Positions 34,264 through 41,280 are shown, counted from the stretch's first letter. The stretch is DNA of 64,000 nucleotides from the human T2T-CHM13v2.0 reference genome, Homo sapiens (GCF_009914755.1 NC_060929.1), one strand, 5' to 3'. The notes: generated from the sequence alone by a model not told the origin. Numbers and translations are program-made.

Positions 34264-35393
34264 AAAACCTTTTTATACTGAAGAAAAAGACAAATTTGAA
34301 ATATAATTATTTTGGATGTAGAAATTTTAATATTTACTGTAGAATTAGTTAACAGATATTTTAATTTTTTTCTTTTATGCTACATTTTCATCTATAATTC
34401 TCTTTAATAAAAAAGCCACAGAAAATCATAGTAACAAAATAGTTCTACATAGTGGAAAATGCAATATGCTTTTATTTCTTATTTCAAAAGCTTGTCATTT
34501 GGCAGATATAGTCACACTGTCTTGAAACATACTTATATAGAACGAAATATATTTATTATATATAAACAAAAACTTTGCAAAATCCCAGAATTTTTATCTT
34601 GATTCTTAATAAAAGATACATCATGATTCATTTTAAAATAAAAAGACTCATACTGGGAATTCATCCAATTAATATTGATGGCCCCACATGGTACAAGCTA
34701 AATGTGATCTTTTCAGTTTGTGAGATAAAAAACATGACCCAAGTGGAATGTTGGCTCCTCGAGTTAGTAATATGCATGGTGACATTTATGTATAAAATAA
34801 ACAGAATTTTTACACCTTAATTTATAGACAGCAGTATTTTTATAGAAGGATGATTAATCTTCAAATTGTTTAATGCTACAGATAATGAAATAGCTTTATA
34901 AATCACTGATATTGATCTGAATAAGTTACTTCACAAAGAGGTTAAAAAGATAAAATAGAATGAAGTACTAGAACAAAACTAATGTTTTAGTTTTTCACTT
35001 TCAGTGATGACAAAGCCAGACAATCAAATGAAGAAATACATTTTCAATCACTTTTATGAATCTAAATATAACTTTACAAGAAAATTGGAGGCCAGAGTAC
35101 AATATTAAAAAGAGAGTATTGGTGGTCACTTCCAAGATGGCCAAATAGGAACAGCTCTGGTCTGCAGCTCCCAGCAAGATCAATGCAGAAGACGGGTGAT
35201 TTCTGCATTTCCAACTGAGGTACCTGGTTCATCTCACTGGGACTAGTTGGACAGTGGATGCAGCCCATGGAGGGTGAGCTGAAGCAGGGCAGGGCATCAC
35301 CTCACCCAGGAAGTGCAAGAGGTCAGGGGATTTCCCTTTCCTAGCCAAGGGCAGCTGTGACAGACTGCAGATGGAAAAATGGTACAATCCCAC

Positions 35394-35561
35394 CTAAATA
35401 CTGCACTTTTCCAATGGTCTTAGCAACCGGCAGACCAGAAGATTCCCTCCCGTGTCTGGCTGGGTGGGTCCCATGCCCGCAGAGCCTTGCTCACTGCTAG
35501 CACAAGAGTCTGAGATTGACCTGTGAGGCTGCGGCCTGGAGTGGGGAGGGGCATCCGCCAT
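35394..35561 (-). other. L1 ORF0 homologue (55 aa, shorter than the canonical 71 aa)
   Basis: MADAPPHSRPQPHRSISDSCASSEQGSAGMGPTQPDTGGNLLVCRLLRPLEKCSI aligns by eye with L1 ORF0 (MAGAPPPASLPPCSLISDCCAS...). Kozak context GCAATGG. Confidence 0.7.
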
Positions 35562-36163
35562 TGCTGAGGCTCGAGTAGGTAAACAAAGCAGCCAGGAAGC
35601 CCAAACTGGGTGGAGCCCACCACAGCTCAGCAAGGCCTACTGCCTCTACAGACTCCACCTCTGTGGGCAGGGCATAGCTGAACAAAAGGCAGCAGACAAC
35701 TGCAGACTTAAACATCCCTGTCAGACAGATCTGACAGATCTGAAGAGAGCAGGGCTTCTCTCAGCACAGTGTTCGACCTCTGAGAATGGTCAGACTGCCT
35801 CATCAAGTGGGTCCCTGACATCCTTGTAGCCTGACTGGGAGACACCTCCCAGTAGGGGCCAACAGACACCTCATACAGGCAGGTGTCCCTCTGGGACGAA
35901 GTTTTCAGGGGAAGGATCTGGCAGTAATATTTGCTGTTTTATAATATTGGCTCTTCTGCAGCCTCCACTGGTGATACCCAGGCAAACAGGGTCTGGAGTG
36001 GACCTCCAGCAAAATCCAATAGACCTGCAGCAGAGGGGTCAGTTAGAAGGAAAACTAACAAACAGTAAGGAATAGCATGAACATCAACAAAAAGGACATC
36101 CACACCAAAACCCCATCTGTAGGTCACCAACATCAAAGACCAAAAGTATACAAAACCATAAAG

Positions 36164-37605: not shown

Positions 37606-37950
37606 CTACATATGCATTTACCTTTTGACTCAGCAATCCCACTTCTAATGATACACCTCTAACACTACAGAAACTCATGTACATGAATTTGTCTATACAT
37701 GTTGTTGTATGTTTCTTCAAACCCATAGAATGTACAATATCAAGACTGAACCCTAAGGTAAACTATGGACTCTGGGTGATTATGTTGTGTCAATGTAGAT
37801 TAATCAGTTATAACAATTGTACCACTTTGGTGGGGGATGTTGATAATGAGGGAGGCTATACATGTGTGGGAGTAGGAAGTATAGGGGAAATCTTAGTACC
37901 TTCCTTTTAGCTTTGCTGTGAACCTAAAAATACTCTAAAATTAATAAGTT
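37606..37950 (+). mobile_element. Old L1M fragments (ORF2 3' end and L1MC-like 3' UTR)
   Basis: ttttgactcagcaatcccacttcta and aaacccatagaatgtacaa...gtaaactatggact...gtaccactttggtgggggatgttgataatg...gctgtgaacctaaaa. Confidence 0.8.
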
Positions 37951-40900
37951 AAGTAATAAAATATATGCATATGTGAAAAAATCTGCCTTCATTAAATAGC
38001 TTAGAAAGTCCATAATGGAACTTGGCATATGTTTTATCCAATATACTGTCTTTTAACCTTGCTATAATTTTGAAAGCCAATAGATTGTTTTCTTAGGAGG
38101 AAAAACTGTAGATAGGGTTTCACTTTAAAGTCTACTGGTGTATCTTGTATTTGGAATTCAAAAGATATTCAAAGAATTAACACTTAGAGTAACCACACTG
38201 TAGAGTTTCTTGGGAATAAAAAACTCACTACATTTACTTATTGTAATTTAAGAAGGACTATTTCTGGTAATAACTTAATCTGTTTCCCAAGCCTCTGTGA
38301 ATAAATTCGGCTTCATATTTAAAAATGAGGTGGAATATACCCAGGTCTTGTCAATCTAGTCATAATTATGGTATAGAGGACATGCACAAATCAAAACCCT
38401 CACCCCTAAGCCAACACTTGGACACTTCACTCTCTCTTTCTGTGGCTCTGATTTAAGACTCATATGCTGATCAATCATAGAACCTCAAACAAACATTTAG
38501 ATATGCTTTTTTTTTTTATCAGTTTTATACTTATTTTTCTCTTTTATCTGAAGTTATAAATGGCTTGCCTAAATTCCTTCTTCACTTTTCATATAAAAAT
38601 TAGCTACATTTCTAAAATTGAATAAATAATTCAGCATGGTAATGCCAATTCCTCGATAAAATACTGGCAAACTGAATCCAGCAGCACATCAAACAGCTTA
38701 TCCACCACGATCAAGTCAGCTTCATCCCCAGGTTGCAAGGCTGGTTCAATATATGCAAATCAACAAACATAATCCATCATATAAACAGAACCAATGCCAA
38801 AAACCACGATTATTTCAATAGATGCAGAAAAAGCTTTTGACATAATTCAATAGCCCTTCATACTAAAACTCTCAATAAACTAGGTATTGATGGAACATAT
38901 CTCAGAATAATAAGAGCTATTTATGACAAACCCACAGCCAATATCATACTGAATGGGCAAAAGCTGGAAGCATTCCCTTTGAAAACCAGCACAAGACAAG
39001 GATGCCATCTCTCACCATTCCTATTCAACATAGTACTGGAAGTTCTGGCTAGGGCAGTCAGGCAACAGAAATAAATAAAGGGTATTCAATTAGGAAGAGA
39101 GGAAGTCAAATCGTCTTTGTTTGCAGATGACATGATTGTATATTTAGAAAACCCCATTGTCTCAGACCCAAATCTCCTTAAGCTGATAAGCAACTTCAGC
39201 AAAGTCTCAGGATACAAAATCAAGTGCAAAATCACAAGCATTCCTATACACCAATAACAGACAAACAGAGAGCCAAATCCTGAGTGAACTCCCATTCACA
39301 ATCACTACTAAGAAAATAAAATACCTAGGAATACAACTTACAAGGGATGTGAAGGACCTCTTCAAGGAGAAATACGAACCACTGCTCAATGAAATAAAAG
39401 AGGACACAAATAAATCGATGAAAATTCCATGCTAATGGATAGGAAGAATCGATATTGTGAAAATGGCCATACTGCCCAAGGTAATTTATAGATTCCATGC
39501 CATCCCCATCAAGCTACCTATGACTTTCTTCACAGAATTGGAAAAAACTACTTTAAAGTTCAGATGGAACCAAAAAAGCACCCGCATAGCCAAGACAATC
39601 TTAAGCAAAAAGAACAAAGCTGGAGGCATCATGCTACCTGACTTCAAACTATACTACAGCATGGTACTGGTACCAAAATAGATATATAGACCAAAGGAAA
39701 AGAACAGAGGCCTCAGAAATAACACTACACATCTACAACCATCTGATCTTTGACAAACCTGACAAAAACAAAAAATGGGGAAAGGAGTCCCTATTTAATA
39801 AATAGTGCTGGGAAAACAGGCTAGCCATATGCAGAAAGCTGAAACTTGATCCCTTCCTTACATCTTATACAAAAATTAATTCAAGATGGATTAAAGACTT
39901 AAATGTAAGATCTAAAGTCACAAAAACCTTAGAAGAAAACCTAGGCAATACCATTCAGGACATAGGCATGGGCAAAGACTTCATGACTAAAACACCAAAA
40001 ACAATGACAACAAAAGCCAAAATTGACAAATGGGATCTAATTAAACTAAAGAGCTTCTGCACAGCAAAAGAAACTACCAACAGGGTGAACAGGCAACCTA
40101 CAGAATGGGAGAAAATTTTTGCAATGTATCCATCTGACAAAGGGCTAATATCCAGAATCTACAAAGAACTTAAACAAATTTACAAGAAAAAAACAAATAA
40201 CCCCATCAAAAAGTGGGCAAAGGATACAAACAGACACTTCTCAAAAGAAGACATTTATGCAGCCAACAGACACATGAAAAAATGCTCATCATCACTGGTC
40301 ATCAGAGAAATGCAAATCAAAACCACAATGAAATACCATCTCATGCCAGTTAGAATGGTGATCATTAAAAAGTCAGGAAACAACAGATGCTGGAAAAGAT
40401 GTGGACAAATAGGGATGCTTTTACACTGTTGGTGGGAGTGTAAATTAGTTCAACCATTGTGGAAGACTGTGTGGTGATTCCTCAGGGATCTAGAACTAGA
40501 AATACCATTTGACCCTGCAATCCCATTACTGGGTATATAGCCAAAGGATTATAAATCATGCTGCTATAAAGATACATGCACACGTATGTTTACTACAGCA
40601 CTATTCACAATAGCAAAGACTTGGAACCAACCCAAATGTCCATCAATGATAGACTGGATTAAGAAAATATGACACATATACATGATGGAATACTATGTAG
40701 CCATGAAAAAGGATGAGTTCATGTCCTTTGCAGGGACATGGATTAAGATACACCATGGAATACTTTTTTATGCAGCCATAAAAAAGGATGAGTTCATGTC
40801 CTTTGCAGGGACATGGATTAAGCTGGAAACCATCATTCTCAGCAAACTATCACAAGGACAGAAAACCAAACACCGCATGTTCTCACTCATAGGTGGGAAT

Positions 40901-41280
40901 TGAACAATGAGAACACTTGGACACAGGGTGGGAACATCACACATTGGGGCCTGTCGGGGGTAGGGGGGATGGGGGAGGGATAGCATTAGGAGAAATACCT
41001 AATGTAAATGACAAGTCGATGGGTGCAGCAAACCAACATGGCACACGTATACCTATGTAATAAACCTGTACATTGTGCACATGTACCCTAGTACTTAAAT
41101 ATAATAAGAAAAATAATACAAATAAATAAATAAAAAGAGAGTATTAATATAAGTGTGTATGTTCTTACTAGTAAAGTTTTTTTAAAAAATTGACACTTAT
41201 TTTCTGTAAACATAAAACTCAGGTAGCAGTAACTATTTTTCACAAAATAATCTGACAAAATTATTCTTATGAACAAGAAT

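What the first reader, a model, noticed from the sequence alone, without database searches (positions are those of the whole stretch)
35106..41145. Single TSD-bounded full-length L1 whose EN/linker region is swapped for foreign genomic DNA
Seen: an identical 15-bp TSD brackets the 5' part (35121-37359) and the 3' part (38650-41130). ORF2 stops after 37 codons (…SQDPS) and joins a headless Alu through a 2-nt AG overlap. L1 resumes at the K-I-L-A-N region at the start of RT. From the known ORF2 layout about 1.5 kb is missing, and about 1.29 kb of non-L1PA DNA sits in its place with no TSD or tail of its own, so total length stays near 6 kb. The filler contains repeats older than the host, which ordinary nesting cannot produce. 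Hypotheses: (a) DSB repair capturing ectopic DNA or RNA, (b) double template switch L1->cellular RNA->L1 during reverse transcription, (c) a copy of a non-autonomous cargo-carrying L1 derivative mobilised in trans.
Basis: partly seen in the sequence, partly recalled or inferred. Interest (0 to 1): 0.8.

Follow-up and report, generated by a model that had tools for sequence, protein, structure and literature searches.

The report
Dead L1 patched with nearby DNA
An old, dead L1 jumping gene on human chromosome 5 had 1.5 kb of its middle replaced by a 1.3-kb copy of DNA from about 450 kb away on the same chromosome, most likely a repair scar made long after the element landed, so it is real and neat but of an ordinary kind.

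Summary
An exact 15-bp target-site duplication brackets one L1 (35121-41130). ORF2 runs 37 codons and then gives way to 1,290 bp of non-L1PA DNA (37360-38649). L1 resumes at position 22 of the 205-position Pfam reverse-transcriptase profile. 1,521 bp of ORF2 are missing.

New here: the filler's donor is found. Its unique part has exactly one other copy in the assembly, chr5:11,611,711-11,613,004. That is about 452 kb away on the same chromosome and inverted. There the Alu extends about 20 nt further 5' and has both of its own flanking repeats, so that locus is the source. Junction microhomology is 1 nt and 2 nt.

- No other locus carries either junction, so a "cargo L1 family" is rejected.
- The filler copies differ by 6.9% (about 3% per lineage), while the host L1 carries 5-6% private change (p = 0.001). 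The L1 3' half was not copied from the L1 next to the donor.

Best reading (about 0.6): a post-insertion break or stalled fork repaired by a deletion plus a templated insertion copied in cis. Rival (about 0.15): a double template switch by the L1 reverse transcriptase. Primate orthologues would decide; none were available. Interest is low to moderate.

The parts
35106..35120 (+). Left copy of the 15-bp target-site duplication TAAAAAGAGAGTATT
   Evidence: family D13: 100% identical to 41131-41145. The flank reads ...ATAT/TAAAAAG, which fits the L1 endonuclease site as I recall it (TTTT/AA on the other strand).
35121..36163 (+). L1 5' UTR, complete at its 5' end
   Evidence: 16 full-length relatives align from query position 4-11 onward at 84-89% identity.
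36164..37184 (+). ORF1 remnant, broken by stops and a frameshift near 36505
   Evidence: Pfam Tnp_22_trimer, Transposase_22 (E 2.4e-56) and Tnp_22_dsRBD at 36514-37053, read with X at stops.
37248..37358 (+). First 37 codons of ORF2 (start of the endonuclease domain), ending ...SQDPS
   Evidence: translation.
37359..37359 (+). Left junction: 1-nt (G) microhomology between L1 and donor
   Evidence: three-way view of window, intact L1 and donor locus.
37360..37600 (+). Filler part 1: Alu lacking its first ~57 nt, with an A-rich/(CAAA)n tail. The upstream copy of the Alu's own flanking repeat is absent here.
   Evidence: 78-80% to four window Alus. (the donor has ~20 nt more of the Alu 5' end plus both flanking repeats AAACTRCATATGC).
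37601..37959 (+). Filler part 2: 3' end of a much older L1 (L1M-like; the name is recalled)
   Evidence: 38 other scored copies at 78-82%. (53 of 300 sites shared-derived in both filler copies). (homology to the L1 ORF2 C-terminus: score 38 against a shuffled maximum of 32).
37960..38649 (+). Filler part 3: unique DNA with one paralogue in the genome
   Evidence: the only other match is G000:C5:11611713-11612391, minus strand, 93%.
38650..38651 (+). Right junction: 2-nt (TC) microhomology, or 5 nt with one mismatch
38650..41130 (+). L1 3' part: ORF2 from the start of RT to its end, the 3' UTR and a degenerate A-rich tail
   Evidence: RVT_1, profile 22-190 of 205, at 38652-39230. (87-91% to many genomic L1s).
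40678..40843 (+). Private imperfect tandem duplication (~70-75 bp unit) inside the ORF2 C-terminal region
   Evidence: families D1 and D12. It is absent from the neighbour L1, and relatives' alignments break at query 2098/2099.
41131..41145 (+). Right copy of the TSD
   Evidence: family D13.

Best explanation
A full-length L1 of an old primate subfamily inserted here by ordinary target-primed reverse transcription, which made the 15-bp TSD. Long afterwards the dead element suffered a double-strand break or a collapsed replication fork inside the endonuclease/linker part of ORF2. Repair lost 1,521 bp. It filled the gap with a 1,290-bp copy synthesised from a template about 452 kb away on the same chromosome (chr5:11,611,711-11,613,004, opposite strand). 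Both ends were joined through 1-2 nt of microhomology.

In today's vocabulary this is a deletion with a templated insertion: microhomology-mediated template switching (FoSTeS/MMBIR type) or an end-joining 'patch' (class-2 templated sequence insertion). The donor stayed intact. The product has no function; it is a repair scar.

Shown: the single TSD, the anatomy, the donor, the direction of copying, the microhomologies and the uniqueness of the junctions.

Inferred: that the patch came after the L1 insertion (from a molecular clock), and that the template was DNA rather than RNA (from the cis position only).
For: 1. Donor found. The whole filler aligns to C5:11613004->11611711 (minus strand) at 91.2% by BLAST with gaps, or 88 mismatches in 1,275 aligned sites. 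The unique part has only this one paralogue.

2. Direction of copying. At the donor the Alu extends ~20 nt further 5' and is flanked by both copies of its own 13/14-nt direct repeat, and the unique DNA runs on uninterrupted. In the window the same stretch is cut mid-Alu and abuts L1 at both ends.

3. Junctions have 1 nt and 2 nt of microhomology and no extra bases.

4. Clock.
- The filler copies differ at 6.9% of sites (6.27% non-CpG), so about 3.1-3.5% per lineage.
- Where an outgroup exists, changes split 15 (window) to 22 (donor) over 475 sites, so the window lineage carries 2.3-3.2%.
- By the same majority method the host L1 differs at 112 of 2,063 sites (5.4%) in its 3' half and 136 of 2,150 sites (6.3%) in its 5' half; non-CpG, 5.0% and 5.6%.
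- Fisher test, 225/4,213 against 40/1,275: p = 0.001.
- ML terminal branches tell the same story: L1 0.062 (3' half) and 0.079 (5' half), against a filler half-distance of about 0.03-0.036.

5. A donor within 455 kb in cis has a chance probability of about 3e-4 for a source picked at random in the genome. That is expected for DNA template switching.

6. The two L1 halves behave as one element. Both are about 1.3 times as diverged as the matching halves of the same six full-length relatives.

7. Templated patches at breaks, without a TSD or poly(A) and with microhomology and small deletions, are a described class (PMC5110952, passages read).
Against: - The clock argument assumes that the majority base of 36 (3' half) or 17 (5' half) sampled relatives stands for the L1's true progenitor. 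The relatives were only the 40 best-scored of 29,120 and of 12,569 candidates. An unsampled progenitor lineage would inflate the L1's apparent age.
- The directly polarised comparison is only marginal: 7/300 against 104/2,063, p = 0.04; 15/475 against 112/2,063, p = 0.046.
- The filler lies in the same orientation as the L1 and, at the donor, probably on the sense strand of a CTNND2 intron. Arm-repeat exons lie on the minus strand at 11.02-11.14 Mb, and GRCh38 chr5:11,732,067 is in intron 2 (PMC7948131, passages read). The CHM13/GRCh38 offset was not checked. This is what an RNA-templated origin needs, and it has only a 1-in-2 chance under a DNA model.
- At 1.29 kb the patch is longer than the experimental patches of 73-414 bp quoted in PMC5110952.
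- No primate orthologue could be examined.
Confidence: 0.6

Rival explanations
1. Tripartite chimera made at the moment of insertion. The L1 reverse transcriptase copied the L1 RNA from its tail to the start of RT. It then switched to a cellular RNA (a sense-strand intronic stretch of the neighbouring large gene), copied 1.29 kb, and switched back to L1 RNA at ORF2 codon 37. From there it ran to the 5' end.
For: - One TSD pair encloses everything.
- The filler is in L1-sense orientation.
- The donor probably lies sense-strand in a CTNND2 intron, so such an RNA would exist (PMC7948131, passages).
- Junction microhomology is short.
- Double template jumps by a LINE reverse transcriptase have been proposed for a fungal element (PMC2104539, search listing and abstract only).
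- L1 chimeras with other RNAs are catalogued in human (bioRxiv 10.1101/2025.02.02.635956, abstract and passages).
Against: - The filler is about half as diverged as the L1 around it: p = 0.001 on non-CpG counts; branch lengths 0.062-0.079 against about 0.03-0.036.
- A donor 452 kb away in cis is a 3e-4 coincidence for a freely diffusing RNA.
- Both switches would have to leave and re-enter templates at internal positions and re-enter the L1 RNA upstream of the exit.
- There is no A>G excess in the Alu part that would hint at an edited RNA: 2 A>G against 3 G>A (low power).
- The human catalogue read describes 5' partner plus 3' L1 only. The word 'tripartite' does not occur in its text.
Confidence: 0.15
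2. Post-insertion break patched by a reverse-transcribed RNA fragment rather than by DNA-templated synthesis: a class-2 templated sequence insertion, made from intronic RNA of the neighbouring gene.
For: - The timing evidence is the same as for the best explanation.
- The donor is probably transcribed as part of a long intron (PMC7948131, passages).
- PMC5110952 (passages read) reports that such patches derive from RNA and include intronic sequence.
Against: - The experimental patches quoted there map all over the genome without regional preference. Here the donor is 452 kb away in cis (3e-4).
- 1.29 kb exceeds the 73-414 bp range quoted.
- No editing signature is seen.
Confidence: 0.12
3. The element is a copy of a non-autonomous, cargo-carrying L1 derivative that was mobilised in trans.
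For: None found beyond the single TSD pair.
Against: - The unique filler DNA occurs only in the window and at the donor, and the donor is not inside an L1.
- No other scored locus spans either junction (40 of 614 and 40 of 117 candidates scored, so this part is not exhaustive).
- The filler is younger than the L1.
Confidence: 0.02
4. The 3' half plus the filler were copied together from the donor locus. A near-full-length L1 ('L1-B') lies 620 bp downstream of the donor stretch in the same orientation. The copying could have gone through a read-through transcript or through break-induced replication across that L1.
For: The donor stretch ends 620 bp upstream of L1-B, in the same relative orientation as in the window. 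A crude local estimate puts that adjacency at about 2-3% by chance (my estimate, from two 5'-UTR-bearing L1s in this 64-kb window).
Against: - The window's 3' half differs from L1-B at 206 of 2,093 sites (9.8%), against 88 of 1,275 (6.9%) for the filler pair: p = 0.004.
- Identity to L1-B is not raised next to the junction: 89.7% in the first 300 bp, within the 86-94% range of 16 other copies.
- The two are not sisters in the tree.
- The 5' half is only 74-84% identical to L1-B, and L1-B lacks the first ~30 nt that the window L1 has.
Confidence: 0.03
5. Assembly artefact.
For: None.
Against: The filler differs from its only paralogue at 6.9% of sites plus 9 gap events, so it cannot be mis-placed reads from the donor. 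Read-level support was not testable here.
Confidence: 0.01

Closest known systems
Class-2 templated sequence insertions (DSB 'patches'; Onozawa and Aplan, PMC5110952, passages read)
   Same: The donor is retained. The patch has no TSD or poly(A) of its own. There is microhomology at the junctions and loss of recipient sequence. Intronic or intergenic donors are reported.
   Different: This patch is 1.29 kb, against the 73-414 bp quoted for experimental ones. The recipient deletion is 1.5 kb. The donor is in cis at 452 kb, not scattered genome-wide. An RNA origin is not shown here.
Replicative template switching (FoSTeS/MMBIR) that produces deletion-plus-inverted-templated-insertion variants (PMC5120786 and PMC6258378, search listings and abstracts only; the mechanism is otherwise recalled)
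   Same: Microhomology at both junctions. The template is in cis within a megabase and is copied in inverted orientation. The donor is left intact, and the net result is a complex deletion-insertion.
   Different: This is an ancient, fixed event, so no fork or parental information exists. Only two junctions are present, with no higher-order complexity.
L1 chimeric retrocopies made by RNA ligation or template switching (U6/L1 and others; bioRxiv 10.1101/2025.02.02.635956, abstract and passages) and the fungal tripartite chimeras (PMC2104539, abstract)
   Same: One TSD pair encloses L1 plus foreign sequence in the same orientation.
   Different: Known human chimeras are '5' partner + 3' L1'. Here L1 lies on both sides of the foreign piece. 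The foreign piece is an internal intronic/genomic fragment, not a small abundant RNA. It also dates younger than the L1.
Numt and other filler-DNA capture at breaks during primate evolution (PMC2567098, search listing and abstract only)
   Same: Ectopic DNA seals a break and is accompanied by a deletion, with end-joining-type junctions.
   Different: The filler here is nuclear DNA copied from the same chromosome arm.

Membership tests
Full-length L1 insertion by target-primed reverse transcription | Perfect or near-perfect target-site duplication immediately flanking the 5' end and the A-rich tail | tested here: met
   15/15 identical at 35106-35120 and 41131-41145 (D13).
Full-length L1 insertion by target-primed reverse transcription | 5' UTR, ORF1, ORF2 (EN, RT, C-terminal), 3' UTR and A-rich tail, in that order | tested here: met
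   ORF1 domains, the ORF2 start, RVT_1 and the tail (read directly) are in order. Only the EN/linker stretch of 1,521 bp is missing.
Full-length L1 insertion by target-primed reverse transcription | Both halves come from one element (same subfamily and same age) | tested here: met
   Terminal branches are 0.079 (5' half) and 0.062 (3' half). The same six full-length relatives give 0.054-0.066 and 0.033-0.054, a ratio of about 1.3 in both halves. Subfamily names could not be assigned because no repeat library was available.
Deletion with templated insertion (DSB patch / FoSTeS-MMBIR) | The inserted stretch is a copy of a donor elsewhere, and the donor remains intact | tested here: met
   The donor at C5:11611711-11613004 is contiguous with its own flanks.
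Deletion with templated insertion (DSB patch / FoSTeS-MMBIR) | No TSD or poly(A) belonging to the insert; microhomology or blunt junctions | tested here: met
   1-nt and 2-nt overlaps and no extra bases. The filler's 3' end has no A-run.
Deletion with templated insertion (DSB patch / FoSTeS-MMBIR) | The event post-dates the sequence it interrupts | tested here: inconclusive
   The clock favours it: 225/4,213 against 40/1,275, p = 0.001. The directly polarised subsets give p = 0.04-0.046. It depends on the sampling of relatives. No orthologous loci were available.
Deletion with templated insertion (DSB patch / FoSTeS-MMBIR) | The template was DNA, not RNA | not testable with these tools
   Only indirect evidence: the donor is in cis (3e-4) and there is no editing signature.
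L1 chimera by RT template switching (tripartite) | The foreign part arrived at the same time as the L1 | tested here: not met
   The filler carries about 3% per lineage against 5-6% for the L1. The caveat on progenitor sampling applies.
L1 chimera by RT template switching (tripartite) | The foreign part is in sense orientation and derives from an expressed RNA | tested here: inconclusive
   Sense orientation is met. Expression is only inferred from a probable intronic position in CTNND2 (PMC7948131).
Cargo-carrying non-autonomous L1 family | Several copies share the same internal junctions and have different TSDs | tested here: not met
   The unique filler occurs at 2 places only. The junctions are spanned only by the window among scored candidates.
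L1 5' or 3' transduction | Foreign sequence contiguous with the source element's flank and located at an end of the L1 | tested here: not met
   The filler is internal. At the donor it lies 620 bp from the neighbouring L1, not adjacent to it, and that L1 is not the source of either half.

The most novel reading that the evidence does not exclude
The donor was not picked at random. The broken L1 ends searched for homology and landed on a paralogous L1 452 kb away. Synthesis was then primed by microhomology on unique DNA 0.6-1.9 kb upstream of that L1, which preserved the L1-relative orientation. If so, dispersed repeats would steer where templated insertions take their template from. That rule could be tested genome-wide on patched repeats.
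Probability: 0.2. Interest if true: 0.55.

Novelty: new member of a known kind. Interest (0 to 1): 0.3.

Why it matters
It gives a fully resolved ancient example of a kilobase-scale templated patch: recipient, donor, both junctions and a relative date. It also shows that an 'impossible nesting' inside a TSD-bounded L1 can be explained without any new retrotransposition mechanism.

Two things give it some value beyond a curiosity:
- The donor sits next to another L1 in the same relative orientation. That hints that repeat homology may guide template choice.
- The case can be decided cleanly from primate alignments. That makes it a useful control locus for pipelines that call L1 chimeras from 'contemporaneous arrival'.

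It has no evident effect on any gene: none is annotated within 100 kb (hub annotation).

Tried and rejected
1. Local origin of the filler inside the 64-kb window: only Alu matches were found.

2. The 3' half copied from the L1 beside the donor: rejected by the identity profile and the trees.

3. Strict singleton counts as an age measure: abandoned. With 30 diverged relatives, parallel changes hide most private changes (2.0% against an ML branch of 6.4%).

4. Showing that the old L1 continues upstream of the Alu at the donor:
- the fetched outgroup copies did not reach that far;
- a local alignment to the window's own ORF2 end was not above shuffles for the upstream flank (score 25 against a shuffled mean of 22.5);
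- the downstream flank was above shuffles (38 against a maximum of 32);
- so continuity upstream rests on my reading only, whereas the Alu's two flanking repeats at the donor are read directly.

5. Splice-site origin of the filler/L1 junction: L1-B, the intact L1 beside the donor, has no AG before the point that corresponds to the right junction (38650), and the donor has no GT after the filler's end (read).

6. A-to-I editing signature in the Alu part: none.

8. Subfamily names (L1PA7/8-like host, older L1-B, AluS, L1M) come from my memory of these families and from no call. No repeat library and no primate genome was available.

9. Literature: five answered full-text searches turned up no description of this locus or of a human L1-foreign-L1 tripartite element. 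None of them queried the locus or its coordinates, and subscription journals are mostly not covered, so this is not proof of absence.

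
Full report
**What is there**

The window is G000:C5:12028001-12092000.

- Bounds: an exact 15-bp direct repeat, TAAAAAGAGAGTATT, lies at 35106-35120 and 41131-41145 (D13). Between the two copies lie 6,010 bp.
- 5' part: 35121-37359 is an L1 5' UTR, a broken ORF1 and the start of ORF2. 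ORF1 carries Pfam Tnp_22_trimer, Transposase_22 and Tnp_22_dsRBD at 36514-37053. ORF2 has its ATG at 37248 and runs 37 codons, ending ...SQDPS.
- 3' part: 38650-41130 is the rest of ORF2. It begins at Pfam RVT_1 profile position 22 of 205 and continues through the 3' UTR and a degenerate A-rich tail.
- Missing piece: on an intact L1 the two break points are 1,521 bp apart.
- Filler: the 1,290 bp in between (37360-38649) are not L1PA sequence. They hold an Alu without its first ~57 nt, about 360 bp of the 3' end of a much older L1, and 690 bp of unique DNA. The old L1 stretch matches 38 other scored genome copies at only 78-82%.
- The filler has no poly(A) and no duplication of its own.

**Where the filler comes from**

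The unique 690 bp have exactly one other match in the 3.1-Gb assembly: C5:11611713-11612391, minus strand, 93% (2 candidates, both scored). The whole filler aligns colinearly to C5:11613004->11611711. That gives 88 mismatches in 1,275 aligned sites and 9 small gap events.

This locus B lies about 452 kb from the window copy on the same chromosome and in inverted orientation.

- At locus B the Alu reaches about 20 nt further 5'. It is flanked on both sides by its own 13/14-nt direct repeat (AAACTACATATGC / AAACTGCATATGC). The unique DNA continues without a break.
- In the window the same stretch starts mid-Alu and ends against L1.

Locus B is therefore the donor and the window carries a partial copy.

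Three-way views give 1 nt of shared sequence at the left junction (G, 37359) and 2 nt at the right (TC, 38650-38651), with no untemplated bases.

**Is it a family?**

No. Besides the two-copy result, 80-nt probes across each junction found only the window itself spanning the junction. All 39 other scored hits per probe covered one side only, except one left-probe hit (C22, query 24-80, 88%) that reaches 17 nt into the L1 side; I read it as a chance Alu alignment and did not fetch it. Only 40 of 614 and 40 of 117 candidates were scored, so these two searches alone are not exhaustive.

**Are the two L1 halves one element?**

The TSD says so, and the dating agrees.

| Part | Window L1 terminal branch | Relatives |
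|---|---|---|
| 5' half (tree of 18 sequences) | 0.079 | 0.054-0.069 for twelve full-length relatives |
| 3' half (tree of 37 sequences) | 0.062 | 0.033-0.054 for the 3' halves of six of those same elements |

The window element is about 1.3 times as diverged as those six relatives in both halves.

**The neighbour L1 at the donor**

The donor stretch ends 620 bp upstream of a near-full-length, older-looking L1 (L1-B, about C5:11611090->11604808). It has the same relative orientation as the filler has to the window L1. I therefore tested whether the window's 3' half had been copied from L1-B together with the filler. It had not.

- The 3' half differs from L1-B at 206 of 2,093 sites, against 88 of 1,275 for the filler pair (p = 0.004).
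- Identity to L1-B is not raised next to the junction: 89.7% in the first 300 bp, within the 86-94% range of 16 other copies.
- The two are not sisters in the trees.
- The 5' half is only 74-84% identical to L1-B.

The adjacency remains an unexplained coincidence. My crude estimate is 2-3% by chance in this L1-dense region, and it is post hoc. It could mean that L1 homology brought the broken ends to that neighbourhood.

**When did the filler arrive?**

This is the only available discriminator between repair after insertion and template switching during insertion.

- The filler pair differs at 6.9% of sites (6.27% non-CpG; 5.3% in the unique part), so about 3.1-3.5% per lineage.
- Outgroups exist for the old-L1 and Alu parts (20 and 12 outgroup copies). 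There the changes split 15 on the window lineage and 22 on the donor lineage over 475 sites, with 57 shared-derived sites that predate the copy.
- The same majority-polarisation applied to the host L1 gives 112/2,063 (5.4%) for the 3' half and 136/2,150 (6.3%) for the 5' half. Non-CpG, these are 5.0% and 5.6%.
- Pooled non-CpG counts, 225/4,213 against 40/1,275, differ with p = 0.001.
- The directly polarised subsets alone give p = 0.04-0.046.

The filler therefore looks roughly half as old as the L1.

Caveats:
- The relatives are the best-scored 40 of tens of thousands of candidates.
- An unsampled progenitor lineage would inflate the L1's private count.
- I had no curated subfamily consensus.

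**DNA or RNA?**

In favour of an RNA being available: Arm-repeat exons lie on the minus strand at C5:11.02-11.14 Mb. A paper places GRCh38 chr5:11,732,067 in CTNND2 intron 2 (PMC7948131, passages). The donor at 11.61 Mb is therefore probably intronic and on the sense strand, so an RNA containing the filler in the right sense plausibly existed. The offset between the two assemblies was not checked.

Against an RNA origin: a donor within 455 kb in cis is a 3e-4 coincidence for a randomly drawn source. The Alu part shows no A>G excess (2 A>G against 3 G>A; low power).

I therefore favour DNA-templated synthesis in cis, but this step is inference.

**Comparison with what is known**

- The structure matches the described class of templated patches at breaks: no TSD or poly(A), microhomology, loss of recipient sequence, donor retained (PMC5110952, passages read).
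- It also matches replicative template-switch variants (PMC5120786 and PMC6258378, listings and abstracts only). It is longer than the experimental patches quoted (73-414 bp), and its donor is in cis.
- Human L1 chimeras catalogued so far are '5' partner + 3' L1' (bioRxiv 10.1101/2025.02.02.635956, abstract and passages; 'tripartite' occurs nowhere in its text).
- Double template jumps have been proposed for a fungal LINE (PMC2104539, abstract).
- Supplements of these papers were not examined and might list this locus.

**Verdict**

- The cargo-family idea is rejected.
- Break repair or template switching after insertion is the best explanation (0.6).
- A patch made from RNA after insertion is at 0.12.
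- A double RT template switch at insertion is at 0.15.

This is a new, well-resolved instance of a known kind of mutation in non-functional DNA, of low-to-moderate interest. Primate orthologues would settle it.

Noticed in passing
window 40678-40843: Imperfect tandem duplication of a ~70-75-bp unit inside the ORF2 C-terminal region (54-nt core 96% identical between units). It is absent from L1-B and from all relatives aligned, so it is private to this copy and arose after insertion.
   Followed up: partly
L003/L004 (G000:C5:~11604808-11611090, minus strand): Near-full-length older L1 ('L1-B') lacking about the first 30 nt, with a 5' UTR only 74% identical to the window element's. It lies 620 bp downstream of the filler's donor stretch, in the same relative orientation.
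   Followed up: partly
L004/L003 (G000:C5:11612790-11613045, minus strand): The donor-locus Alu is itself 5'-truncated (it starts near Alu position ~38) and is flanked by a 13/14-nt direct repeat, AAACTACATATGC / AAACTGCATATGC. The window copy keeps the 'A' variant in its single remaining repeat, so the G arose at the donor after the copy was made, or the A is a reversion.
   Followed up: no
window 37960-38649 vs G000:C5:11611713-11612391: Transitions and transversions are equal (18:18) among the differences in the unique part of the filler. That is low against the usual ~2:1 (binomial p = 0.05). It could be noise, or a trace of error-prone copying, but the polarised parts show no excess of changes on the copy's lineage (15 against 22).
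   Followed up: partly
window 62718-63999, 43111-47650, 57434-60090, 7357-8433, 33708-34268: Further L1 pieces of several ages lie in the window, including what looks like the 5' UTR of another long L1 starting near 62718 and running off the window end. The region is very L1-dense although only 19% is soft-masked in the hub's table.
   Followed up: no
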